Positions 26,617 through 62,584 of a DNA stretch of 64,000 nucleotides are shown here, one piece after another. Position 1 is the stretch's first letter; each line of letters starts with the position of its first letter. Source of the DNA: a phage. The translations under genes and the position numbers were made by a program. The stretch lies in the NCBI GenBank assembly GCA_021469345.1, contig GCA_021469345.1_3049.1. One strand, written 5' to 3'. The notes under the pieces are model-generated. The model was not told where the DNA came from and did no database searches. It saw nothing but the letters and a program-made list of their open reading frames with translations.

Positions 26617-27069
26617 ATGGCATATTCTGGAAAATGGGTTCCTAAAAATATATCAAAGTATAGAGGTGACCCTAAAAAAATTACGTATAGATCAAATTGG
26701 GAAAAATTCTTTTTTGAATGGTTAGATAAAAATCCAGAAATTATTGCATGGGGTAGTGAAACAGCAGTAATTCCTTATTTTTGTAATGCAGAAGGGAAAA
26801 AACGTAGATACTTCATGGATATTTGGATGAAAGATTCTTCTGGACAAGAATTTTTTATTGAAATAAAGCCTAAAAAAGAAACACAACCACCAGTTAAACC
26901 AGCACATCTAACAACTGCAGCGAAGAAAAGATTTATGAATGAAATTTATACATATTCTGTTAATACTGACAAATGGAAAGCAGCGCAATCTTTAGCTGAA
27001 AAGCGTGGAATAAAATTTAGAATTCTAACAGAAGATGGATTACGAGCTCTTGGCTTTAAGGGGGCATAA
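26617..27069 (+). CDS. 4: Head completion protein gp4
   Basis: 150 aa as in T4 gp4; SD AAGGAG upstream. Confidence 0.88.
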
Positions 27070-29990: not shown

Positions 29991-30042
29991 TTTCACAAAG
30001 TTGTTTACACGTTGATGAGGTAGTGATACTATTATCTCATCA
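29991..30042 (+). promoter_or_regulatory. Early promoter with upstream TTTCACAAAG element and stem-loop (PeSL-like), serving ipI
   Basis: GTTTAC -35 at 30003-30008, -10 inside GTGATACTATTA, flanking inverted repeat GATGAG/CTCATC. Confidence 0.6.
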
Positions 30043-30062
30043 AAATTAATTAGGAAAATAAA

Positions 30063-30612: not shown

Positions 30613-31017
30613 ATGAATATTAACGAATATTATGTTTATGCTGGGGATTATGCAAATCCTTCTCATTTTGAAGGTAATTTAATACCTGATAGAGTTTTTA
30701 ATACTCCTTTTGAAGCGTGGAGTTGGGTTGAAAGTAAAAATGGATTTTCTTATCGTTATGTTGAAGTAACTGATTGGAAAGGAACTAAATATCCTAAAGA
30801 GCATTATTATGTAGACCCATCTAAAGTAAATTTTCTTTTGTTCGCAGGCGATAATTACTATCCTTGCGGTGGATATGATGATTTGATTGCGTATGCTGAA
30901 ACAGAAGATGAATTACGCCAAATTATTGAAGACAATAAATCAAAACGATTTGGCGATAGTTTTGACTGGTGGCAAATCGTAAATGCCCATACACATACTA
31001 TTGTTGATAAAGGTTAA
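30613..31017 (+). CDS. Hypothetical protein with an internally duplicated AGD-Y-Y-P motif
   Basis: 134 aa; YVYAGDYANPSHFEG and LFAGDNYYPCGGYDD look like an internal repeat. Confidence 0.55.
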   Translation: MNINEYYVYAGDYANPSHFEGNLIPDRVFNTPFEAWSWVESKNGFSYRYVEVTDWKGTKYPKEHYYVDPSKVNFLLFAGDNYYPCGGYDDLIAYAETEDELRQIIEDNKSKRFGDSFDWWQIVNAHTHTIVDKG

Positions 31018-31019
31018 TA

Positions 31020-31307
31020 ATGATTCTTTATGCGAAAGTATCATCCATTGAAAATGGATATAAATATGATCAAGAAGCAGCTAAAGCCTTGATTGATGAT
31101 TATGGCATTTTAACATGTTTTGAAGTTGAAAAGGTTTACATTGATCGTTCATCTTCTCAAGTTAAATTAGTGAAGGAAGACCGTAAATTTAACACAGTTA
31201 ACTTTGATTTCTTTATTGAAACGGAAAAAGGTCCTCTTGAATATGATATTTTCAAGAATCCTTTGGGTCTTGAATGCATCGTAAATATGTATCAGCATAA
31301 ATGGTAA
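31020..31307 (+). CDS. Hypothetical protein
   Basis: 95 aa ORF tightly packed after the previous gene. Confidence 0.5.
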   Translation: MILYAKVSSIENGYKYDQEAAKALIDDYGILTCFEVEKVYIDRSSSQVKLVKEDRKFNTVNFDFFIETEKGPLEYDIFKNPLGLECIVNMYQHKW

Positions 31308-31404
31308 ATATGCTTTAAGAATTATTTGTTATTATTAACTCATACCGCACTGATTAATACCCTCTATCATCAAGGGTTCTTGTTTGAGAGCCTTTGTTAA
31401 TAAT

Positions 31405-31477
31405 TGGGAATTAGCCAAGTTGGTAAGGCATAGCACTTTGACTGCTAGATGCAAAGGTTCGAGTCCTTTATTCCCAG
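31405..31477 (+). tRNA. tRNA-Gln (anticodon UUG)
   Basis: Cloverleaf read by eye: acceptor TGGGAAT/ATTCCCA, T-arm GGTTCGAGTCC, anticodon loop CTTTGAC. Confidence 0.85.
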
Positions 31478-31478
31478 C

Positions 31479-31565
31479 GCGAGAATGGTCAAATTGGTAA
31501 AGGCACAGCACTTAAAATGCTGCGGAATAATTTCCTTGTGGGTTCGAGTCCCACTTCTCGCACCA
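31479..31565 (+). tRNA. tRNA-Leu (anticodon UAA), long variable arm, CCA encoded
   Basis: Acceptor GCGAGAA/TTCTCGC, anticodon loop CTTAAAA, T-arm GGTTCGAGTCC, 3' ACCA. Confidence 0.85.
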
Positions 31566-31570
31566 AATTT

Positions 31571-31644
<74 letters not shown>

Positions 31645-31654
31645 ATTTAATTTA

Positions 31655-31728
31655 CTCCGTGTAGCTCAGTTTGGTAGAGCGTCTGCTTTGGGAGCAGAAT
31701 GTCGTAGGTTCAAATCCTGCCACGGAGA
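31655..31728 (+). tRNA. tRNA-Pro (anticodon UGG)
   Basis: Acceptor CTCCGTG/CACGGAG, anticodon loop TTTGGGA, T-arm GGTTCAAATCC. Confidence 0.85.
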
Positions 31729-31730
31729 CT

Positions 31731-31817
31731 GGAGGCGTGGCAGAGTGGTTTAATGCACCGGTCTTGAAAACCGGCAGTCGCTCCGGCGACTCATAGGTTC
31801 AAATCCTATCGCCTCCG
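31731..31817 (+). tRNA. tRNA-Ser (anticodon UGA), long variable arm
   Basis: Acceptor GGAGGCG/CGCCTCC, anticodon loop CTTGAAA, T-arm GGTTCAAATCC. Confidence 0.85.
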
Positions 31818-31819
31818 TT

Positions 31820-31895
31820 GCTGATTTAGCTCAGTAGGTAGAGCACCTCACTTGTAATGAGGATGTCGGCGGTTCGATCCCGTCAATCAGCACCA
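31820..31895 (+). tRNA. tRNA-Thr (anticodon UGU), CCA encoded
   Basis: Acceptor GCTGATT/AATCAGC, anticodon loop CTTGTAA, T-arm GGTTCGATCC. Confidence 0.85.
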
Positions 31896-31896
31896 A

Positions 31897-31968
31897 GGCC
31901 CTGTAGCTGGAAGGTTCAAGCAAGCGACTCATAATCGCCAGATGGTGGTTCAATTCCACCCAGGGCCA
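31897..31968 (+). tRNA. tRNA-Ile (anticodon CAU, presumably lysidine-modified as in T4)
   Basis: Acceptor GGCCCTG/CAGGGCC, anticodon loop CTCATAA, T-arm GGTTCAATTCC. Confidence 0.8.
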
Positions 31969-32009
31969 TATTTTGGGAACATAAATACTCTTAGAAATAG
32001 GAGATATTT

Positions 32010-32675
32010 ATGTTCCATTACACTTATAAAATAACAAATAAAATTAATAATAAAATTTATATTGGTGTGCATTCTACCGAAAATTTAGATGATGGATATA
32101 TGGGTTCTGGTAAATTATTAAAAAGAGCTCAAGATAAGTATGGTATAGAAAATTTTTCTAAAGAAATATTAGAGTATTTTGATGATAAAGAATCTATGCT
32201 TGAAGCCGAGAAAAATATTGTCACAGAAGAGTTTTTAAATAGACCAGATGTGTATAATTTAAAACTTGGCGGTGAAGGTGGATGGGACCATATAAATATT
32301 CCTGGGATGCTAAACCAGAAGAAAGACGCTAGTTTAAAAGGAGCTAAATCGTTTAAGTCACGTTTTAAAAATGATATTTTACTTCAAGAAAAATATCGTA
32401 AACATGGTTCAAATGTATTTAAACGCTTGTGGTCAACTCCTGAATACAGGGAAAAATTTTTAAATAATAGCAGATTTTTAAATAAGCATCATACTCCTGA
32501 AACTATTAATAAAATGAAAGAATCTCACGCCAGAAATAAACATCAACAGGGCGAAAAGAATTCCCAATTTGGTATGATGTGGATTCATTCATTAGATGAA
32601 AAAGTTTCTAAACGTATTAAGAAAACTGACCCAATTCCAGAAGGATGGCTTAAAGGTCGAAAAATGAAATTTTAA
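32010..32675 (+). CDS. segB: GIY-YIG homing endonuclease SegB
   Basis: 221 aa; N-terminal YTYKITN...KIYIGVHST...YMGSG GIY-YIG module; inserted inside the tRNA cluster as in T4. Confidence 0.85.
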   Translation: MFHYTYKITNKINNKIYIGVHSTENLDDGYMGSGKLLKRAQDKYGIENFSKEILEYFDDKESMLEAEKNIVTEEFLNRPDVYNLKLGGEGGWDHINIPGMLNQKKDASLKGAKSFKSRFKNDILLQEKYRKHGSNVFKRLWSTPEYREKFLNNSRFLNKHHTPETINKMKESHARNKHQQGEKNSQFGMMWIHSLDEKVSKRIKKTDPIPEGWLKGRKMKF

Positions 32676-32678
32676 TTA

Positions 32679-32754
32679 CGGGGCATAGCTCAGAAGGAAG
32701 AGCAAGGACCTTCTAAGTCCTGGGTCGTAGGTTCGATCCCTACTGCCTCGACCA
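32679..32754 (+). tRNA. tRNA-Arg (anticodon UCU), CCA encoded
   Basis: Acceptor CGGGGCA/TGCCTCG (one G-U pair), anticodon loop CTTCTAA, T-arm GGTTCGATCCC; begins 4 nt after the segB stop. Confidence 0.85.
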
Positions 32755-32757
32755 GAC

Positions 32758-33070
32758 AAGAAGCCGGGTCGCTACCGGTAAGTCGTCGGACTGATGTTCC
32801 CTGAGTAAGGACTGGTCTTAATAAATCTTTACGATTTGTTAATACCCCCTTACATCACAACAGAAACGGCGCACCGAATTATCGATTCGAGGAAATATCT
32901 TTGCCGTAAGCCGAGTAGCGTTTTTGACGGAACGTTCGGATATGGTCGAGATATGGCCTTTTAAAAATATTGAGTAGCGTCAACTGCTTAATAACCGGGT
33001 TCGAATCCCGGCGTTTCGTACAAACACTTGCCTTAGCAGGTGGAACCCCGACAAGGTTGCCGCAAGGCTT
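32758..33070 (+). ncRNA. T4-type small stable RNA region (species 1 / species 2 RNAs), exact ends not determined
   Basis: No credible ORF; contains a tRNA-like T-arm (CCGGGTTCGAATCCCGG); lies directly after tRNA-Arg as in T4; closed by the hairpin terminator at 33071-33100. Confidence 0.45.
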
Positions 33071-33100
33071 AGCCCCAGCCGAAAGGTTGGGGCTTTTTGG
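33071..33100 (+). terminator. Rho-independent terminator after the stable RNA region (repeat copy 1)
   Basis: AGCCCCAGCCGAAAGGTTGGGGCTTTTTGG: stem AGCCCCA/TGGGGCT plus T5. Confidence 0.65.
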
Positions 33101-33108
33101 TATAAATA
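33101..33108 (+). promoter_or_regulatory. Late promoter for the internal-protein-like gene
   Basis: Exact TATAAATA 29 nt upstream of the ATG at 33137. Confidence 0.6.
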
Positions 33109-33136
33109 GATGAGTTAATTAACACAGGAAATAATA

Positions 33137-33599
33137 ATGAAAACTTATGCTCAATTTTTAATGACCGAAGCATCCGCTTCAGATGTTCGCGCTGTAGCAA
33201 CTGCTGCTATTAAAGCTGGTAAATATTCTTATAAAGATGCTTCTGACGAATCTCGGTACAAGTTCTATGACGATATGAGAGCTGAAGGCTTTGTGGGTAA
33301 CTATGTTACCACCGCCTGGAAAAGCCTGGTTGCTACTGGTGCGGCTTTCGAAAAACCTTCTGGTAAACCTGCTCCTAAGGCTGACCCTAAAGCAGCACAA
33401 GAAAAAAAATATTGCTAAAGGAATTATCTCTAGGTATGAAGCAATTCTTAAAGAACTTTTGATAATTAAGACCGAAGGCCAGAAACTTGCACGTGCTTAT
33501 AGTTTCAAAGATAATCCACATGCTCATGACCTAGAGTATGTTGAAGACCTCCAAAAAATCATCAAAGACCGCATTTGGTCTGCTAAACAAATCAAATAA
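33137..33599 (+). CDS. Internal-protein-like gene with capsid-targeting leader; reading frame split at an A8 tract (33402-33409)
   Basis: Late promoter TATAAATA at 33101, SD, leader MKTYAQFLMTE/A. Frame A stops at 33418; frame B continues from the A-run to 33599 and ends at a terminator. One fewer A would fuse them into about 150 aa. Confidence 0.6.
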
Positions 33600-33606
33600 C
33601 ATTCTT

Positions 33607-33636
33607 AGCCCTAGCCGAAAGGTTGGGGCTTTTTGG
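33607..33636 (+). terminator. Rho-independent terminator after the internal-protein-like gene (repeat copy 2)
   Basis: AGCCCTAGCCGAAAGGTTGGGGCTTTTTGG, near-identical to 33071-33100. Confidence 0.65.
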
Positions 33637-33744
33637 TATCTAGGCCTTTCCAGACCTCTCTAGGCATCATTTAGTTTATACCCTTTATAATATATTATCC
33701 TATCTTTTAATTGCCCCTCCCTGCCCCAGAATTCCCCAAAACTT

Positions 33745-33810
33745 TTTAAAAAATTTTTTCACAAAACTGTTTACATCCCTGTTCTTCTATGGTACTATAC
33801 AACTATCAAC
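33745..33810 (+). promoter_or_regulatory. Early promoter cassette
   Basis: TTTTTCACAAAACTGTTTACA plus GGTACTATACAACTATCAAC; identical blocks recur at 48418-48471 and 51070-51089. Confidence 0.6.
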
Positions 33811-33829
33811 TACTGATACAGAAAACAAC

Positions 33830-34105
33830 TTGGAGAACGAAATGGATAATTACGGCGAACTGTTCAACTTCTTTATGAAATGCGTTTCAGAAGATTTTGG
33901 TCGTACAGTGAATGATATTAAAGTTATCGGTCCTGATCATCCGATGTTTGAAACTTACGCAGTAATGGGTAATGAAGATGGTCAGTGGTATACTGTAAAG
34001 GTTGTGATTAACATGTTCACGGCAGAAGGTTATGTTAAACTGTCTTCTAAAGTTTACCATGATAACGATGAAATCGCAGAAGAATATTTCAATAATATGA
34101 AATAA
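33830..34105 (+). CDS. Hypothetical protein (e.x-like region)
   Basis: 91 aa ORF downstream of an early promoter; start may be an internal Met. Confidence 0.5.
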   Translation: MENEMDNYGELFNFFMKCVSEDFGRTVNDIKVIGPDHPMFETYAVMGNEDGQWYTVKVVINMFTAEGYVKLSSKVYHDNDEIAEEYFNNMK

Positions 34106-34140
34106 AACGTTTACATGGGCTTATGATTGAGATATTATGA
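34095..34140 (+). promoter_or_regulatory. Early promoter
   Basis: GTTTAC at 34109 with GATATTAT -10. Confidence 0.5.
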
Positions 34141-34469
34141 GCCCTATTAATGAGAAGAATGTTATGAGTCTTTATACTGAACTGAATAAAAAATCTGAAG
34201 AATCTGCTGAAACTATTTTTAAAAACGTGCAAAGGCGTATTTTAGAAAAGATGTATAACGCTGCAGCTAAAGGTGAAAAATCTTGCCGGTTTCCGATTAG
34301 GTGTTCTTCAGATTTATGCGCAAATACTATTGAATGGCTGGAAAGTGAAGGTCTTACGGTAGAGAAAAACCCGGCGACTTCTATTGACGGCGAATCATAT
34401 ATTAGTATTTCTTGGGATAAACCTCGTACGAATGAAGGGTACTACAAGTTGTTGAGTTGGAAAAATTAA
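34137..34469 (+). CDS. Hypothetical protein
   Basis: 110 aa ORF following an early promoter at 34095-34140. Confidence 0.5.
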   Translation: MSPINEKNVMSLYTELNKKSEESAETIFKNVQRRILEKMYNAAAKGEKSCRFPIRCSSDLCANTIEWLESEGLTVEKNPATSIDGESYISISWDKPRTNEGYYKLLSWKN

Positions 34470-34543
34470 AAATAATGATGTACAAACACCAAGGACGGTG
34501 TTATTATAGACTTATCAAAACAAATACAGAAACGGAGAAATAA

Positions 34544-34708
34544 ATGACTACTTTAATTATTTGGTTCGACGAAAATGAAGAAACATACTGCGTGAACATT
34601 GGCGAAAGCCCAATGCCAGAATTTGAATCTTCAGATAAAAACTCGGTTGTATCTTGGGCTGAAGGTTATAAAGCAGCAAAAGGTGATGTTGAAATAGTTT
34701 ACATCTAA
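34544..34708 (+). CDS. Small hypothetical protein
   Basis: 54 aa ORF with SD GGAGAAA, below the ORF-track length cutoff. Confidence 0.35.
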   Translation: MTTLIIWFDENEETYCVNIGESPMPEFESSDKNSVVSWAEGYKAAKGDVEIVYI

Positions 34709-34752
34709 GTATGAAGGCGTTACTATAGACTTATCATCACAAGGAAAACATT

Positions 34753-35088
34753 ATGAAACGTAACTTTAGTAAAGCTTTTTGTAATAGAAATGATTATCCT
34801 GAAGAGCTTTTTGAATCTAAGGAATTTAAAGAGTTTAACGAACGTTCTCAAAACATGCCTGTACAGTGGGTATTGGATTATGCTAACCGTATCTTTGAAG
34901 GCGTACGTTTCGTTGGCCCCGATGATGAAGCTCCTTATTTTAAAAAGGCTTGGGAACTCGCCAATCAAGCATATATCAATGCTTTAGAATCTTCTAAAGG
35001 TACTGACGATGATTTTATTTTATTGGCTATCAATGATGCTGTTGTCGAGGCCATCGACGCCTTTATCGACGAGCTAGACGAAGAATAA
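34753..35088 (+). CDS. Hypothetical acidic protein
   Basis: 111 aa, acidic C-terminus; SD AAGGAAAA upstream. Confidence 0.5.
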   Translation: MKRNFSKAFCNRNDYPEELFESKEFKEFNERSQNMPVQWVLDYANRIFEGVRFVGPDDEAPYFKKAWELANQAYINALESSKGTDDDFILLAINDAVVEAIDAFIDELDEE

Positions 35089-35120
35089 GTTTACAATCTA
35101 TTAAAAACGTGATATTATCT
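35080..35120 (+). promoter_or_regulatory. Early promoter
   Basis: GTTTAC at 35089 with GATATTAT -10. Confidence 0.5.
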
Positions 35121-35145
35121 AATTGTATCAACCTAAGGAAATACT

Positions 35146-35739
35146 ATGAACACACTGAAGAAAATTGTTGAGTTTATTCGCACTAAACTTGGTTCTGCTA
35201 TGGCTAAAAATCTATCTGTTGAAGAACAGTATACTGCTGCAGCAGCAAAACTACTTGATAAAATTAAAGATCTAAAAACTGCTTCTATTAAATCTATTAA
35301 TGAAGAAAAGCGTATTCGTGAACTTATTGTCGAAAAGAATAAGCAGGCCGAATCAAAAGAGCGTGAAATTCGCAAGCTTCTTTCCGAAGGTCAAGATGTA
35401 ACAATGCATGCTAAACTCGGTTTACTATATCGTCGAACAGCTGAGCAGTTGACTACTAAAGCTGACGGTTATGCTGAAATGCGAATTGAAATTGCCAAGA
35501 AAGTAGTTGAGTTAGATGATGCTCGTCAAGAACTTGCAGTTAAATTGGAATATATCCGTGAAACTCGCGCCGCGAATGCCCTTGGAATTAGTACTGCCGA
35601 TGATGTAGTTGAAATCGCAGCGCTGACTAAGGTTGATATTGAAGATACCCTTGCTCGAGTTGAAACCTTTAACGGTAATATTTCCGGGGTTGAAACTACC
35701 TCTGCCGATGTTCAGGAATATATTAATTCTCTGAAATAA
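35146..35739 (+). CDS. Coiled-coil protein, possibly PspA/IM30-like
   Basis: 197 aa, helical heptad-like sequence rich in K/E/A; followed by a GC hairpin at 35747-35761; preceded by an early promoter. Confidence 0.5.
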
Positions 35740-35744
35740 TGATA

Positions 35745-35765
35745 AGGGGCTTCGGGCCCCTATTA
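35745..35765 (+). terminator. GC hairpin, possible weak terminator
   Basis: GGGGCTTCGGGCCCC stem-loop after the 35146 ORF; weak U-tract. Confidence 0.4.
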
Positions 35766-35781
35766 CTTGGAGTAAGTAGGA

Positions 35782-36390
35782 ATGAAAATGCAAAGTGATT
35801 TCAATTCAATGTTTGAAGAGTTCCAAAGACAGGTTGATGTTCCAGACCAATTATTACATGCTCTTAAACGCATGGCAGAAGGACGTAATTATTATTGGGG
35901 TTCTTCATATGAAACTGATGAAAGTCTTTCTGGAAGATTTTATAGAGGTAAAAAGTCTTTAATACGTCCTGGAATACTTATTAACAGTATTGAATCAATT
36001 CATTCATTGACGTGTGATTTTGATGTTGAATTTACTGATTTCATTTCTCCTGAATGGACAGTTTGTTATTTAAACGACGATTTTGATTATCTCGGTGTTT
36101 ATAGTTTAAGTGACGCATGGTTTAAACGTAACTTACAAAAGTCAAATTTATTTTATATTGATACTACGGTAAAATTTCAGGGAAAGAAATATTTCTTTAC
36201 TCTTATAGTTGATTCTGAAACGAAGCATGAAAATAAACGTATTCTTAGTAAAAGGAATATCTTGAATATTGTTGATGATCTTTTTGATAAATTCGTGGAA
36301 AATCCTAGTTTTGAAAGCGATTTATTACTAGAAAAATTTGTTAAGGAATGTAGAGAATATGTCAAAGCCATCAATGCATCTTCCAAGTAA
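35782..36390 (+). CDS. Hypothetical protein
   Basis: 202 aa ORF, no recognised motifs. Confidence 0.5.
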   Translation: MKMQSDFNSMFEEFQRQVDVPDQLLHALKRMAEGRNYYWGSSYETDESLSGRFYRGKKSLIRPGILINSIESIHSLTCDFDVEFTDFISPEWTVCYLNDDFDYLGVYSLSDAWFKRNLQKSNLFYIDTTVKFQGKKYFFTLIVDSETKHENKRILSKRNILNIVDDLFDKFVENPSFESDLLLEKFVKECREYVKAINASSK

Positions 36391-36751
36391 ACCCTTAAAG
36401 TATGAATCAAAGCACCAGATAATTTCTACTGATGTATTAATAGGTCCTGTAATAGCTGTATCATTTGTAATTCTACTGGGGGTTGGAATAGTTATAGATG
36501 TTATGACTGATATTGAATCTAATATAATATTTGCGTCAACATTAATTCTTCCAATGATAGTTCCATTTTTATTAGTACCTGTAAATTGGGTAGGATACTG
36601 GTATCAAGGAAGGCATTATCGTAAACGCGTACGTGATTGGAAAGCTCAGTGTAAAAAGATTAAAAAGGAACACCAGCTTAAACTTGCTGCGTATGAATTT
36701 GATGAAATTATGAAATTTGTTAAGGAATCACGATGCAAAAGCCAAAACTAA
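36359..36751 (+). CDS. Membrane protein, paralog of the next gene
   Basis: Two hydrophobic segments then a basic C-tail ending MKFVKESRCKS; start taken at the internal Met (MSKPSMH), uncertain. Confidence 0.5.
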   Translation: MSKPSMHLPSKPLKYESKHQIISTDVLIGPVIAVSFVILLGVGIVIDVMTDIESNIIFASTLILPMIVPFLLVPVNWVGYWYQGRHYRKRVRDWKAQCKKIKKEHQLKLAAYEFDEIMKFVKESRCKSQN

Positions 36752-37095
36752 ATAAAGTCAAATATTCGCTTCCTGAGTCATTTTTAATTTTTGCTGTGGC
36801 GTTGGCTGCAGCTCTTGCGGGTAGTCTTTTTGGATTATTAATTGACTGTCTTATTTTAAACATCGACGGCACAGTAAATATAACAGAAGTTTGGAGTGAA
36901 CTTCACTATACTAAAATTATTTCATTATTTTCATTCTTTGGTACCATGTTATATTTTCATTATGATAATTTTAAAATAAATTGGCAAAGAAAAAAGGATT
37001 ACAAAATACAATTAAAAGAATATAATAGCTACATGTCTTATATTGAAAATGAATCAATGAAAGAGTTTGTGAGTGATTGCAGGAAATTAAAATGA
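36733..37095 (+). CDS. Membrane protein, paralog of the previous gene
   Basis: 120 aa; hydrophobic segments and a similar C-tail (MKEFVSDCRKLK). Confidence 0.5.
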   Translation: MQKPKLNKVKYSLPESFLIFAVALAAALAGSLFGLLIDCLILNIDGTVNITEVWSELHYTKIISLFSFFGTMLYFHYDNFKINWQRKKDYKIQLKEYNSYMSYIENESMKEFVSDCRKLK

Positions 37096-37532
37096 AAACA
37101 TTATCAGCTGGTATTATCTTCATGACAGAAGATAAAGATTTATTTATGGGTCGGGTCACTGGTTCTCGTAAGCCTGGAATGATGGCGCATCGCTGGGATA
37201 TTCCAAAAGGGCGTGTAGAAAGTTCTGATTTGAATGCACTGGAAGCTGCAAAAAGAGAATGCTTAGAAGAGACCGGTTTTAGCAATTATAATCCAGACCT
37301 TCTAGAAGACCTAGGTGTATTTAAATATTCTAGTAATAAAGACTTACAGTTATTTTATTATACGATTCCAGTAGAGCATGAGATGTTTAGAAATTGCCAT
37401 TGCGAGTCTTATTTTGAAAATAAAGATGGCGTTATGATTCCAGAGATGGATGCTTTTGCTCTTATTCCTCGTACTCAGTGGCAATATGTGATTGGCCCTT
37501 CACTTTACCGAATAATGAACAGCCTCTTTTAA
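37077..37532 (+). CDS. nudE: Nudix hydrolase NudE (e.1)
   Basis: Nudix box GRVESSDLNALEAAKRECLEETGF; immediately upstream of e as in T4. Confidence 0.8.
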   Translation: MQEIKMKTLSAGIIFMTEDKDLFMGRVTGSRKPGMMAHRWDIPKGRVESSDLNALEAAKRECLEETGFSNYNPDLLEDLGVFKYSSNKDLQLFYYTIPVEHEMFRNCHCESYFENKDGVMIPEMDAFALIPRTQWQYVIGPSLYRIMNSLF

Positions 37533-38100
<568 letters not shown>

Positions 38101-38158
38101 TACAGTTACTTGAAGAGACAAATTATTAATTAAAATATTTTACATTTAAAGGAAACAT

Positions 38159-38632
38159 ATGAAAACATATCAAGAATTTATTACTGAAGCAGCTATTAAT
38201 TCTCAAATTATTGCTGAATCTTTTACTGATCTTTTGAAATTTAAAAAAGGCCAAAAAATCACTGCTGTATTGGATGATGGTACAGAAGTTGAGATGGATG
38301 TACAAGGATATAATTATGCAGTAGATGGAAAACTGTATAATAAATCTCATGCTAAATTTGATTCATTTGACGACTTTGTTAATACAGTTGAAGATGAAAA
38401 AACTCGTCGATCCATTGCAACTGGTGATGCTAAGGTTCTTATGGCACATGGTCATGAACGCATTCGCGCTAAACAGAATAAAATGGGTGAAGATAATTTT
38501 GCATTAGTTGGTTATCAATCTGGTAAACAAACCTATGGTTATCAGCGTACTGCTACCATGTATAATAAAAATGGTAAAATTGCCTTTGTGAATAGTAAGG
38601 GTTCTATTCAGTACGTTAAATCGTTCAAATAA
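38159..38632 (+). CDS. Internal protein (IPII/IPIII-like) with capsid-targeting leader
   Basis: 157 aa; leader MKTYQEFITE/A with gp21-type L/I-x-E cleavage context; adjacent to e as ipIII/ipII are in T4, but the length differs from both. Confidence 0.7.
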   Translation: MKTYQEFITEAAINSQIIAESFTDLLKFKKGQKITAVLDDGTEVEMDVQGYNYAVDGKLYNKSHAKFDSFDDFVNTVEDEKTRRSIATGDAKVLMAHGHERIRAKQNKMGEDNFALVGYQSGKQTYGYQRTATMYNKNGKIAFVNSKGSIQYVKSFK

Positions 38633-38737: not shown

Positions 38738-39325
38738 ATGGACAATTCATGCGCCACGGAATGGCCCAAACTTAGAGAGAATAAAATGAGAACATTTTTA
38801 ACTGGTCCTTATCTATCCCTGATGAATGCTTTTACACACCATTCTGATGCTAGAGTAGAAGAAATTTGTAAAAACGATTATATCCCACCATTTGAAGATT
38901 TACTTAAAGAGTATTGTACACTTCGTATAGATGGTGGACGTCAATCTGGTAAATCAATTGCTGTGACTAATTTTGCTGCTAATTGGTTGTATGATGGCGG
39001 AACAGTTATTGTTCTTTCTAATACTTCAGCTTACGCTAAAATTTCTGCAAATAACATTAAAAAGGAATTTTCGCGTTATTCTAATGATGATATACGTTTT
39101 CGTTTATTTACTGATTCTGTGCGTAGTTTTATTGGTAATAAAGGAAGCAAGTTCAGAGGTTTATCGCTTTCGCGAATTTTGTATATAATTGACGAGCCTG
39201 TCAAATCTCCTGATATGGATAAGATTTATAGTGTCCATATTGACACTGTACACTACTGCTGTAATAGTAAATGTTGCATTGGTGGTATTACTCGTCCACA
39301 GTTTTTCGTAATCGGAATGCAATGA
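38738..39325 (+). CDS. Hypothetical P-loop protein
   Basis: Walker A-like GGRQSGKS and Walker B-like LYIIDEP; start may be the internal MRTFL. Confidence 0.5.
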   Translation: MDNSCATEWPKLRENKMRTFLTGPYLSLMNAFTHHSDARVEEICKNDYIPPFEDLLKEYCTLRIDGGRQSGKSIAVTNFAANWLYDGGTVIVLSNTSAYAKISANNIKKEFSRYSNDDIRFRLFTDSVRSFIGNKGSKFRGLSLSRILYIIDEPVKSPDMDKIYSVHIDTVHYCCNSKCCIGGITRPQFFVIGMQ

Positions 39326-48383: not shown

Positions 48384-48408
48384 GGGAGCCTTCGGGCTCC
48401 TTTTTTTA
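48384..48408 (+). terminator. Rho-independent terminator after the nucleotidyltransferase-like gene
   Basis: GGGAGCC-TTCG-GGCTCC followed by TTTTTTT. Confidence 0.7.
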
Positions 48409-62563: not shown

Positions 62564-62584
62564 GGGCTTCGGCCCTTTTTTTGG
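62563..62584 (+). terminator. Rho-independent terminator
   Basis: GGGC-TTCG-GCCC followed by TTTTTTT. Confidence 0.6.

What the first reader, a model, noticed from the sequence alone, without database searches (positions are those of the whole stretch)
33071..33636. Extra internal-protein-like gene with capsid-targeting leader, split at an A8 tract and flanked by 30-bp direct repeats
Between the stable-RNA region and the e.x genes sits a compact cassette: a TATAAATA late promoter (33101), SD, and an ORF starting MKTYAQFLMTE/A. That N-terminus has the same architecture as the capsid-targeting leaders of IPI (30063) and the internal protein at 38159 (MKT[FY].[EQ]F...TE/A, the gp21 cleavage context). 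A protein with this leader is expected to be packaged in the head and injected with the DNA, which is the delivery route of the known anti-restriction protein IPI. The reading frame stops at 33418 just after an A8 homopolymer (33402-33409), but a clean ORF in the +1 frame continues to 33599 and ends at a terminator. One fewer A would give a single protein of about 150 aa. So this is either a sequencing/homopolymer error, a recent inactivation, or expression by slippage at the A-run. The cassette is bounded by two near-identical 30-bp hairpin terminators (33071-33100, 33607-33636), the signature of a module inserted or exchanged by recombination between repeats.
Basis: partly seen in the sequence, partly recalled or inferred. 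Interest (0 to 1): 0.8.

Follow-up and report, generated by a model that had tools for sequence, protein, structure and literature searches.

The report
Frameshifted internal-protein-like gene in T4-like phage
A T4-like phage carries, at a site that is empty in T4 itself, a gene whose start looks like the address tag that loads proteins into the phage head for injection; this copy is broken by one extra A in a mutation-prone run of A's, and the family is a good untested candidate for a new anti-defence protein.

Summary
The window is a Tequatrovirus. Between rnaC and e.8 lie a terminator hairpin, a TATAAATA late promoter, an SD and an ORF starting MKTYAQFLMTE/A. The ORF stops just after an A8 run (33402-33409). 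Its +1 frame stays open to 33599, and a second copy of the hairpin follows.

- **Frameshift:** Relatives have A7 and one 152-157 aa ORF. Removing one A gives a protein 100% identical to that of phage Pu-Krd-SF3.
- **Selection:** Both halves are under strong purifying selection in the single frame (dN/dS 0.04-0.2).
- **A8 is probably real:** The exact 93-aa product occurs on 5 contigs from independent datasets, in at least 3 haplotypes.
- **The run is hypervariable:** Public genomes show A6, A8 and A9 variants in several allele backgrounds. It is the longest homopolymer in a window depleted of such runs.
- **Presence or absence:** T4 and PST lack the gene and keep exactly one repeat copy, which fits deletion between the repeats.
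- **Leader:** Only the two known ip genes and this ORF carry the leader in the window. Distant homologues in Mosigvirus, Klebsiella and Yersinia phages keep a leader with a canonical L-x-E motif. Some relatives carry a second leader-bearing gene next door.

The family (PHROG 2280) has no known function, fold or literature. Packaging and anti-defence function are inferred.

The parts
32882..33020 (+). rnaC (species 1 stable RNA), the upstream neighbour and end of the tRNA/stable-RNA cluster
   Evidence: Mapped from the RB27 annotation through the 98.7% identical alignment. T4 has the same RNA.
33069..33103 (+). Left copy of the 35-bp direct repeat. It is an intrinsic terminator hairpin (stem-loop 33071-33094, GAAA loop, T-run) that ends the stable-RNA operon.
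   Evidence: T4 and PST keep a single copy at this position.
33101..33108 (+). T4-type late promoter box TATAAATA, overlapping the 3' end of the left repeat
   Evidence: The same hairpin-T-run-TATAAATA arrangement occurs in RB27, fPS-2, AR1, Klebsiella phage KP01 and L034. MHG19 has TATAAATA behind a different, weaker stem. This is a consensus match only; there are no expression data.
33126..33129 (+). Shine-Dalgarno AGGA, 7 nt upstream of the ATG
   Evidence: Read directly from the sequence.
33137..33169 (+). Leader MKTYAQFLMTE, a capsid-targeting-sequence-like propeptide with a predicted gp21 cut after E11
   Evidence: It has Y4, F7 and L8 as in the IPIII CTS MKTYQEFIAE. The criteria come from PMC9026906. 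AlphaFold2 models the leader as disordered.
33137..33418 (+). Truncated ORF of 93 aa: leader, N-terminal three-helix domain and K/P/A-rich linker, ending QEKKYC*
   Evidence: The identical product is found on 5 public contigs.
33402..33409 (+). A8 homopolymer, the +1 frameshift site. Intact alleles have A7 (codons GAA AAA AAT).
   Evidence: A6, A8 and A9 variants exist in other phages. It is the longest homopolymer in the window.
33408..33599 (+). Out-of-frame remainder encoding the conserved C-terminal helical domain (NIAKGIISRYEAILKELL...DRIWSAKQIK*), 63 codons plus stop. No inactivating change other than the frameshift.
   Evidence: dN/dS of this part among intact alleles is 0.04-0.08.
33605..33639 (+). 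Right copy of the 35-bp direct repeat (1 mismatch). It is the terminator hairpin of the cassette (stem-loop 33607-33630) and is followed by TATCTAGG, with no late promoter box.
33770..33798 (+). Early-type promoter-like site upstream of e.8; downstream context, not part of the cassette
   Evidence: It is conserved in T4.
33842..34105 (+). e.8, the downstream neighbour
   Evidence: Pfam Phage_T4_Y07A is recorded on the homologous gene.

Best explanation
The cassette at 33069-33639 is a non-essential accessory gene of T-even-type phages. It encodes a small basic two-domain protein of 153 aa when intact, with a predicted mature form of about 15.8 kDa and pI 9.4.

Proposed mechanism: the gene is transcribed from its own late promoter. 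The N-terminal capsid-targeting-type leader directs the protein into the prohead core. The gp21 prohead protease trims the leader after a Glu. The protein is then carried in the head and injected with the DNA. It would be a further member of the 'internal protein' (Ip) class, at a third locus (rnaC-e.8) beside the two classical ip loci. By analogy with Ip1-3, its most likely role is to neutralise a host defence at the moment of DNA entry.

In this window the gene carries a genuine +1 frameshift, A7 to A8, in a replication-slippage-prone A-run in the interdomain linker. The main product is therefore a 93-aa protein: leader, N domain and linker, without the strongly conserved C-terminal domain. 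At most trace amounts of full-length protein could arise from polymerase or ribosome slippage.

The two 35-bp terminator repeats are substrates for homologous recombination. Deletion between them gives the T4/PST state, with one repeat and no gene.

Shown here: the anatomy, the frameshift, the selection on the intact frame, the tract polymorphism, the empty site, and leader conservation across genera.

Inferred: late expression, head targeting, cleavage, injection and anti-defence function.
For: **The gene is real and the intact form is the selected state.** Relatives have A7 and a single 152-157 aa ORF. dN/dS is 0.06-0.21 for the N part and 0.04-0.08 for the C part, with dS of 0.7 or more between the divergent alleles. 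tblastn finds the gene in 512 phage records, 470 of them full length.

**The leader matches the internal-protein type.**
- Only IPI, the ip gene at 38159 and this ORF match the leader pattern among 600 Met starts.
- Y4 and F7 (targeting residues) and L8 are present, by the criteria in PMC9026906.
- Sibling alleles and distant homologues keep canonical L-x-E sites: FLNE/A, FLTE/Q, KP01 MKFKEFLAE/A, MHG19 MLNFNEFLAE/S, P0012 and L034. The rest of the protein diverges or swaps domains.
- There is a weak match of residues 1-43 to a PHROG annotated 'internal virion protein'.
- A second gene, sharing only the leader, sits next door in Pu-Krd-SF3 and PhAPEC2. fPS-65 has a gene of the same size there, which was not translated.

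**Late promoter.** It is fused to the terminator in Tequatrovirus relatives, Klebsiella phage KP01 and L034.

**A8 is a real allele.** The exact 93-aa product is on 5 contigs from different datasets, all with A8. One is 100% identical to the window over 2183 bp. The others come from different backgrounds and haplotypes.

**The tract is hypermutable.**
- A8: bov10K1, FJ1, T4_ev240, ECO07P3, teqhal and P0006.
- A9: fPS-65 and ECO4.
- A6: SfPhi01 was verified. Two more records with the same -1-frame tail, and the protein P0011 from a Mosigvirus-type allele, are inferred from their tails.
- A/T runs of 7 or more number 5 in the window against about 47 expected.

**Empty site.** T4 equals left flank plus one repeat plus right flank. 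The T4 and PST annotations show no gene there.

**Functional analogy.** Ip1, Ip2 and Ip3 each inhibit a distinct GmrSD type IV restriction enzyme and share only the leader (PMC12373910).
Against: - There is no direct evidence that the protein is in virions, processed or injected. No proteomic or genetic paper on it was found.
- In the window allele the predicted site is L-M-T-E/A, so P3 is Met and not the canonical L/I. Processing of this allele is uncertain.
- IPI and the 38159 ip gene in this window have early-type promoters. This gene has only a late box, so its regulation differs from theirs.
- Every deposited record inspected calls it a hypothetical or 'Phage' protein. Pfam, NCBIfam, PDB sequence search and fold searches give nothing, so the function rests on analogy alone.
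- Raw reads were not inspected. The A8 evidence rests on assemblies.
Confidence: 0.62

Rival explanations
1. Homopolymer sequencing or assembly error: the real phage has A7 and an intact 153-aa gene, so nothing biological happened at the tract.
For: A7 is the state in the large majority of relatives (52 of 54 close records; 9 of 9 IMG/VR loci). Homopolymers are the classic indel-error site. The sibling records bov9_1 and bov10K1 differ by 1 bp in total length, and one has A7 while the other has A8. The C-terminal part shows no decay.
Against: The identical A8 product occurs on 5 contigs from different datasets. These include read-level re-assemblies (Logan) and at least 3 haplotypes or genomic backgrounds. 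Changes to A6, A8 and A9 recur specifically at this tract across many laboratories. No other split gene was noticed in the part of the window that was examined. An A8 run is well within the accuracy of short-read consensus (my own knowledge).
Confidence: 0.12
2. Programmed recoding: the A8 allele is expressed as a full-length protein by transcriptional slippage (loss of one A in the mRNA) or by +1 ribosomal slippage of tRNA-Lys on the A-run. The two-frame layout would then be functional.
For: The A-run is slippery for both RNA polymerase and ribosomes (established knowledge). Both frames are intact and the 0-frame stop is only 2 codons after the run. A8 alleles persist in several backgrounds.
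Against: The defining feature of programmed recoding is a split layout conserved across relatives, and that is absent: relatives are in frame with A7. A6 and A9 variants fall in the other wrong frame, as expected from random slippage. No stimulatory element was looked for. Efficient RNA polymerase slippage in E. coli generally needs runs of about 9 or more (my own knowledge).
Confidence: 0.05
3. Contingency locus: the conserved A7 run is kept because it gives phage populations reversible switching between a full-length and a truncated (or null) form of an injected protein. Each form would be favoured on different hosts.
For: Tract lengths of 6, 7, 8 and 9 are seen in many allele backgrounds. 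They include A6 and A9 on the same KVAQEK haplotype. The tract is kept in alleles that differ by dS of about 1, including a Mosigvirus. The genome otherwise strongly avoids such runs, with 5 against 47 expected. The tract lies in the interdomain linker, so the truncated product keeps the leader and a folded N domain. That N domain also occurs with other C domains in Klebsiella and Yersinia phages.
Against: GAA-AAA-AAT are the preferred codons in this AT-rich genome. Conservation of three synonymous sites is therefore not significant by itself (rough estimate about 0.05). Distant homologues lack the tract. Only a few percent of genomes are shifted, which also fits neutral loss of a dispensable gene during laboratory propagation. 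No within-population data exist.
Confidence: 0.15
4. Not a head-packaged protein: the shared N-terminal codons are a conserved recombination or translation-initiation module, and the protein acts in the cytoplasm late in infection.
For: No virion proteomics are available. The window allele has a non-canonical M-T-E site. Regulation differs from that of the neighbouring ip genes. All databases call it hypothetical.
Against: The leader is conserved at the protein level, with varied codons and lengths, across genera. It always keeps [YF]-x-[EQ]-F-[LIV] and a following L/I-x-E. In T4 the first 10 residues of IPIII are sufficient to target even foreign proteins into heads (PMC9026906). The protein is basic and Lys-rich; that this resembles the DNA-associated internal proteins is from my own knowledge.
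Confidence: 0.15

Closest known systems
T4 internal proteins Ip1/IPI, Ip2/IPII, Ip3/IPIII, and IpIV-VI of phage PST
   Same: All are small, non-essential and variably present genes of T-even phages. Their N-terminal leaders are of the MKT[YF]x[EQ]F...E/A type, and the mature parts are otherwise unrelated. The mature protein here is basic and Lys-rich. It is expected to be loaded into the prohead core, trimmed by gp21 and injected. Ip1-3 inhibit distinct GmrSD type IV restriction enzymes (PMC12373910).
   Different: The gene lies at a third locus (rnaC-e.8), not at the ipI locus (57B-trna.4) or the ipII/III locus (e-denV). It has a late promoter only, whereas this window's ip genes have early-type promoters. 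It has a two-domain architecture with a K/P/A linker. The window allele has M-T-E rather than L/I-x-E. No experimental evidence exists for packaging or function, and the records inspected do not annotate it as an Ip.
PeSL elements (promoter-early stem-loops) of T4-type phages (Arbiol 2010, PMC2839356; Comeau 2014, PMC4122927)
   Same: A composite terminator stem-loop plus promoter, placed immediately upstream of an SD and start codon, flanks a gene-sized indel between closely related phages. Recombination between copies explains gain or loss of the module.
   Different: The promoter fused to the hairpin is a late box (TATAAATA), not a sigma-70-like early promoter. The repeat occurs only twice in 64 kb, so it is not a dispersed family. 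The left copy doubles as the terminator of the stable-RNA operon.
T4 frameshift hot spots at A-runs (Streisinger slippage model; rII and e genes)
   Same: Gain or loss of single bases in a run of A's during replication, recurrent and reversible, at one site.
   Different: The variation here is seen as natural polymorphism among sequenced wild phages, at an A7 run inside an accessory gene. It is not a laboratory mutation spectrum. This comparison rests on my own knowledge and was not tested here.
PHROG 2280 (unknown function)
   Same: The repaired protein matches it end to end (E 5e-52). So do the neighbouring 188-aa leader gene and the Klebsiella phage KP01 homologue.
   Different: The PHROG carries no function. 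The family members share the leader and the general layout, but their domains differ. The 153-aa and 188-aa proteins are alike only in the leader when compared pairwise.

Membership tests
T-even internal proteins (CTS-bearing, head-packaged, injected) | N-terminal capsid-targeting sequence like MKTYQEFIAE, with targeting residues at positions 4 (Y/F) and 7 (F) | tested here: met
   The leader is MKTYAQFLMTE, with Y4 and F7. Only the two known ip genes and this ORF match among 600 Met starts. The criteria are from PMC9026906.
T-even internal proteins (CTS-bearing, head-packaged, injected) | gp21 cleavage motif L/I-x-E just after the targeting residues (positions 8 and 10 in IPIII) | tested here: inconclusive
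   The window allele has L8-M9-T10-E11/A12, so P3 is Met. Sibling alleles and distant homologues have canonical FLNE/A, VLNE/A, FLTE/Q and FLAE/A.
T-even internal proteins (CTS-bearing, head-packaged, injected) | Synthesis at the time of prohead assembly | tested here: inconclusive
   TATAAATA lies 28 nt upstream of the ATG and is conserved in relatives. This is a consensus match only, with no transcript data.
T-even internal proteins (CTS-bearing, head-packaged, injected) | Physical presence of the leader-trimmed protein in virions, and injection into the host | not testable with these tools
   No proteomic report was found.
T-even internal proteins (CTS-bearing, head-packaged, injected) | Dispensable and variably present among close relatives | tested here: met
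   The gene is absent from T4 and PST. It is present in 470 or more phage records. Frameshifted alleles occur in viable isolates.
T-even internal proteins (CTS-bearing, head-packaged, injected) | Location in one of the two described ip loci | tested here: not met
   The gene lies between rnaC and e.8. [quoted passage not shown] This is a historical rather than a mechanistic criterion.
T-even internal proteins (CTS-bearing, head-packaged, injected) | Inhibition of a host defence such as a GmrSD-type restriction enzyme | not testable with these tools
   No homology or fold match to any characterised inhibitor.
PeSL mobile regulatory cassettes | Stem-loop terminator joined to an early sigma-70-like promoter | tested here: not met
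   The hairpin is joined to the late box TATAAATA. No early-type promoter was found at the repeat.
PeSL mobile regulatory cassettes | Copies flank indels between closely related genomes | tested here: met
   T4 has exactly one copy and no gene.
PeSL mobile regulatory cassettes | Dispersed multi-copy family within the genome | tested here: not met
   Only two copies in the 64-kb window, allowing up to 3 mismatches.
Programmed frameshift or transcriptional-slippage gene | Two-frame layout at the slippery site conserved among relatives | tested here: not met
   Relatives are in frame with A7. Shifted alleles fall in either wrong frame.
Contingency (phase-variable) locus | Coding homopolymer whose length varies among close relatives | tested here: met
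   A6, A7, A8 and A9 are all seen.
Contingency (phase-variable) locus | High-frequency reversible switching within a population, with a selective benefit for each state | not testable with these tools
   This needs deep sequencing of lysates and fitness assays.

The most novel reading that the evidence does not exclude
The rnaC-e.8 interval is a third, unrecognised internal-protein locus of T-even phages. Its main gene encodes an injected anti-defence protein, and the conserved A7 run in its linker works as a contingency switch. By replication slippage, phage populations would continually produce variants that inject either the full two-domain protein or only its N domain. That would be phase variation of an injected counter-defence factor in a virulent phage.
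Probability: 0.12. Interest if true: 0.75.

Novelty: new member of a known kind. Interest (0 to 1): 0.5.

Why it matters
T4 lacks this gene, so the model phage never drew attention to it. Yet roughly two thirds of sequenced T4-like coliphages carry it, and every record I inspected calls it 'hypothetical protein'.

In 2025 all three T4 internal proteins were shown to be specific inhibitors of different GmrSD type IV restriction enzymes (PMC12373910). A widespread, uncharacterised family with the same head-targeting leader is therefore a concrete candidate for a new injected anti-defence protein. This matters for phage host range and for the choice of therapeutic phages.

The recurrent frameshifts at one A-run also carry a practical warning. 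Isolates of 'the same' phage can differ in whether this gene is intact, and annotation pipelines split it into meaningless pieces.

Tried and rejected
**Function by homology or fold: nothing found.**
- Pfam gave no hit and NCBIfam gave only noise.
- The PDB profile search had a best E-value of 0.6.
- Foldseek against PDB gave nothing below E=1, only generic helical bundles.
- Foldseek against BFVD returned only uncharacterised members of the same family.
- The AlphaFold2 model is of moderate quality (pLDDT 72.8, built from 5 sequences).

**Literature: no report on this gene.**
- No paper mentions RB32ORF133c or RB69ORF149c.
- No virion proteomics for this gene were found.
- Repoila 1994 is not held.
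- The supplement of Comeau 2014, which lists the PST/T4 Ip differences, is not held.
- Petrov 2010 and Nolan 2006 do not discuss Ips.

**Counting tract lengths across all 512 records: only partly possible.**
- Short tblastn queries ending in the frameshift tail were masked by the low-complexity filter.
- Only the -1-frame tail query worked, giving 7 records from 5 phages.
- The frequency of shifted alleles is therefore a lower bound of about 2-5%.
- The IMG/VR scans gave few loci: 2 and 9.

**Other ideas rejected.**
- Independent translation of the C-terminal domain in the A8 allele: there is no in-frame ATG, and no SD before the only TTG. The second CDS that gene callers annotate in bov10K1 and FJ1 is an artefact.
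- A dispersed PeSL family: rejected, because only two copies exist.
- Recent insertion of the cassette: rejected in favour of loss in T4, because homologues sit behind the same terminator-late-promoter junction in Mosigvirus, Klebsiella phage KP01 and the distant contig L034.
Full report
**1. What the window is**

The region is a T4-like phage (Tequatrovirus) read in the reverse of the conventional T4 map.
- The order on the + strand is 57B, ipI (30063), trna.4-.2, seven tRNAs, segB, tRNA-Arg, rnaD, rnaC, the cassette in question, e.8, e.7 ... e, and an ip gene at 38159.
- No record in the phage collection is identical to it. The best match over the cassette is RB27 at 98.7%, and the surrounding 12 kb is a mosaic of 94-95% matches.

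**2.

- The hairpin-plus-T-run occupies 33071-33100.
- TATAAATA is at 33101-33108, AGGA at 33126-33129 and the ATG at 33137.
- The 93-codon ORF ends at 33418, just after the A8 run (33402-33409).
- The +1 frame is open to 33599.
- A second copy of the hairpin is at 33607-33636.
- The repeat is really 35 bp with one mismatch (33069-33103 and 33605-33639).
- It occurs exactly twice in 64 kb, against 0 expected.
- Both copies fold into 10-bp GAAA-tetraloop hairpins with a T tail.

**3. The split is a +1 frameshift of a gene that is normally intact**

- RB27, vB_Eco-B1.1, SP21535, fPS-2, AR1, Pu-Krd-SF3, the Mosigvirus PhAPEC2 and nine IMG/VR contigs all have A7 and a single ORF of 152-157 aa.
- Removing one A from the window gives a protein 100% identical to that of Pu-Krd-SF3.
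- Between divergent alleles both halves evolve under strong purifying selection in that single frame. dN/dS is 0.06-0.21 for the N part and 0.04-0.08 for the C part, with dS of about 0.7 or more. The full-length protein is therefore the selected state.
- The C-terminal segment of the window carries only polymorphisms that also occur in intact alleles. The break is evolutionarily young.

**4. Is the A8 real?**

I could not see reads, but the assemblies point to a genuine allele.
- The exact 93-aa product is encoded on five public contigs from different datasets: four read-level re-assemblies and one GenBank assembly. All have A8.
- One of them (SRR17583572) is 100% identical to the window over 2183 bp.
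- The other four have different flanks (no segB, 93-95% identity) and belong to two further haplotypes.
- Their nearest A7 relatives differ: B1.1 for the window type and RB27 for the other. A8 therefore either arose more than once or has moved by recombination.

A one-off sequencing error is unlikely. A systematic homopolymer artefact cannot be formally excluded.

**5. The tract is a hot spot**

Every frameshift found in this gene in public data is at this run.
- A8: bov10K1, FJ1, T4_ev240, ECO07P3, teqhal and the protein cluster P0006.
- A9: fPS-65 and ECO4.
- A6: SfPhi01 was checked at the DNA level. 235Ecol030PP and vB_Eco_F26 are inferred from the same -1-frame tail and match length. So is the protein P0011, which comes from a Mosigvirus-type allele.
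- SfPhi01 (A6) and ECO4 (A9) share the same local haplotype.
- bov9_1 (A7) and bov10K1 (A8) are sibling genomes that differ by 1 bp in total length.

Shifted alleles make up at least 2-5% of the records that carry the gene: 2 of 54 and 3 of 55 in the spread sample.

The window as a whole avoids such runs. It has 5 A/T runs of 7 or more against about 47 expected from a second-order Markov model, and a single run of 8 or more (this one) against about 16. Two of the other four are terminator T-tails.

The codons are GAA-AAA-AAT, the preferred ones in an AT-rich genome. Their conservation in alleles with dS of about 1 is suggestive but not significant by itself.

A-runs are the classic replication-slippage hot spots of T4 (Streisinger model; my own knowledge). 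Recurrent mutation in a dispensable gene is therefore the simplest reading. A maintained contingency switch is the more interesting one that the data do not exclude.

Programmed recoding is not supported, because the split layout is not conserved and shifted alleles fall in either wrong frame.

**6. What the protein looks like**

- The leader MKTYAQFLMTE has the two residues that matter for head targeting in IPIII (Y4, F7) and the hydrophobic position 8. The criteria are quoted from the review PMC9026906.
- In the window, only IPI (MKTFKEF...ITE/A), the ip gene at 38159 (MKTYQEFITE/A) and this ORF match M-x-x-[YF]-x-[EQ]-F among 600 possible Met starts.
- The expected gp21 motif is L/I-x-E. 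The window allele has M-T-E/A, a conservative but non-canonical P3.
- Sibling alleles have FLNE/AVLNE/A or FLTE/Q. Distant homologues have MKFKEFLAE/A (Klebsiella phage KP01), MLNFNEFLAE/S (Yersinia phage MHG19), MLKFNEFLAE/G (P0012) and MKTYNEFLNE/SVLNE/A (L034).
- The leader and a cleavable Glu are thus kept while the rest diverges. That pattern is what one expects of a targeting propeptide.
- AlphaFold2 (pLDDT 72.8) gives four parts: a disordered leader; a confident three-helix N domain (about residues 18-75 of the 157-aa allele that was modelled); a K/P/A-rich disordered linker that contains the A-run; and a long helical hairpin.
- The predicted mature protein is basic, with pI 9.4 and 25 K+R in 142 aa.
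- The Klebsiella and Yersinia phage homologues keep the leader, N domain and linker but have a different C domain.
- Within Tequatrovirus, N and C parts have different histories. RB27 against fPS-2 gives dS 0.80 for the N part and 0.08 for the C part. The linker is therefore also a recombination joint.
- The frameshifted product keeps the leader, N domain and linker. Because ten CTS residues suffice to package foreign proteins in T4, it would probably still be loaded into heads.

**7. The locus**

- T4 has rnaC, then a single copy of the repeat, then the e.8 upstream region. That is exactly left flank plus one repeat plus right flank of the window.
- The PST annotation shows no gene in the same interval, and the interval is short enough that none fits.
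- About 470 of the roughly 675 phage records that match the locus carry a full-length gene.
- Homologues sit behind the same stable-RNA, hairpin, T-run and TATAAATA junction in Mosigvirus (with a one-mismatch box), in the Klebsiella phage KP01 and in a distant contig, L034. MHG19 has TATAAATA behind a different upstream stem.
- The gene is therefore probably old at this site, and T4 lost it by recombination between the 536-bp-spaced repeats. This is the opposite direction from the 'inserted module' wording, but the same mechanism.
- The arrangement resembles the PeSL cassettes described for T4-type phages. It differs in having a late rather than an early promoter and only two copies.
- Pu-Krd-SF3 and PhAPEC2 carry a second gene directly downstream (188 aa, MKTYAEFLTE/AAKLP...). 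fPS-65 has a gene of the same size at that position, which I did not translate.
- The 188-aa protein shares only the leader with the first gene in a pairwise comparison. It falls in the same PHROG 2280.
- The rnaC-e.8 interval thus holds 0, 1 or 2 leader-bearing genes. It behaves like a third ip locus, whereas T4's Ips are described as lying in two loci (PMC12373910).

**8. Function**

- Pfam, NCBIfam, PDB sequence search and two fold searches give no lead.
- No paper or proteomic dataset on this gene was found.
- The only functional inference is by class. Ip1, Ip2 and Ip3 share nothing but the leader, and each inhibits a different GmrSD type IV restriction enzyme.
- The most likely role is therefore an injected inhibitor of some host defence, with an unknown target.

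**9. Verdict**

- It is an unrecognised but widespread member of the internal-protein class, at a non-classical locus, and T4 lacks it.
- In this genome it is broken by a +1 slip in a hypermutable A-run.
- It is not a new kind of system. Its value is as a concrete, testable candidate anti-defence gene and as a possible case of tract-length switching.
- Packaging, processing, injection, target and switching are all inferred, and the experiments that would settle them are listed above.

Noticed in passing
L024:1379-1945 (Pu-Krd-SF3); L023:1637-2200 minus strand (PhAPEC2); absent from the window between 33640 and 33840: Some relatives carry a second leader-bearing gene (188 aa, MKTYAEFLTE/AAKLP..., 'RB69ORF149c-like') between this gene and e.8. 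It has its own hairpin, which shares only the GGGCTTTTTGG.AT tail. It matches PHROG 2280, but in a pairwise comparison it shares only the leader with the 153-aa protein.
   Followed up: partly
Proteins P0009, P0010 and P0015 (public assemblies); corresponds to window about 30613-37532: Three deletion chimeras turned up. One joins the N part of Trna.3 to the last 31 aa of this protein. One joins residues 9-39 of this protein to the C part of NudE. One joins a KP01-type N domain across to the e.8-like gene. The tRNA-e region seems prone to large deletions that end inside this gene.
   Followed up: no
whole window: A/T homopolymers of 7 or more are strongly depleted: 5 observed against about 47 expected from a second-order Markov model. 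Runs of 8 or more number 1 against about 16. Two of the five are terminator T-tails (48401-48407 and 62576-62582), and one is in the ORF 26617-27069.
   Followed up: partly
window 38159-38632: The ip gene beside e is not T4 ipIII. It is a 157-aa protein of PHROG 3155 ('internal virion protein'), the same length as PST ipIV. No T4-type ipII or denV ORF follows it; the next ORF (38738-39325, 195 aa) was not identified.
   Followed up: no
window 29995-30062 and 38064-38158: ipI and the 38159 ip gene are preceded by early-type promoters (GTTTACA, 17 nt, TAnnAT) and have no TATAAATA nearby. The cassette gene has only a late box. The leader-bearing genes therefore do not share one regulatory pattern.
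   Followed up: no
window 31897-31968 and 32010-32675, compared with L001 and L002: tRNA content and segB presence vary among close relatives. The window and T4 have segB and 8 tRNAs. RB27 has 10 tRNAs (adding Tyr and Asn) and no segB. B1.1 has an extra tRNA-His and a 116-aa ORF. ARAGORN calls the CAU tRNA Met, whereas T4 annotates it as Ile.
   Followed up: no
gene-internal, around window 33370-33420: There is a recombination breakpoint inside the gene. RB27 against fPS-2 gives dS 0.80 in the N part and 0.08 in the C part, and fPS-2 against AR1 shows the reverse. The conserved linker and A-run block appears to act as a joint for domain shuffling.
   Followed up: partly
record OR584013.1 (hit H191): A record named 'Pseudomonas phage PsgM02F' (host Pseudomonas coronafaciens) carries this Tequatrovirus gene at 100% identity over the N part. 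The host label or the sample deserves a check.
   Followed up: no
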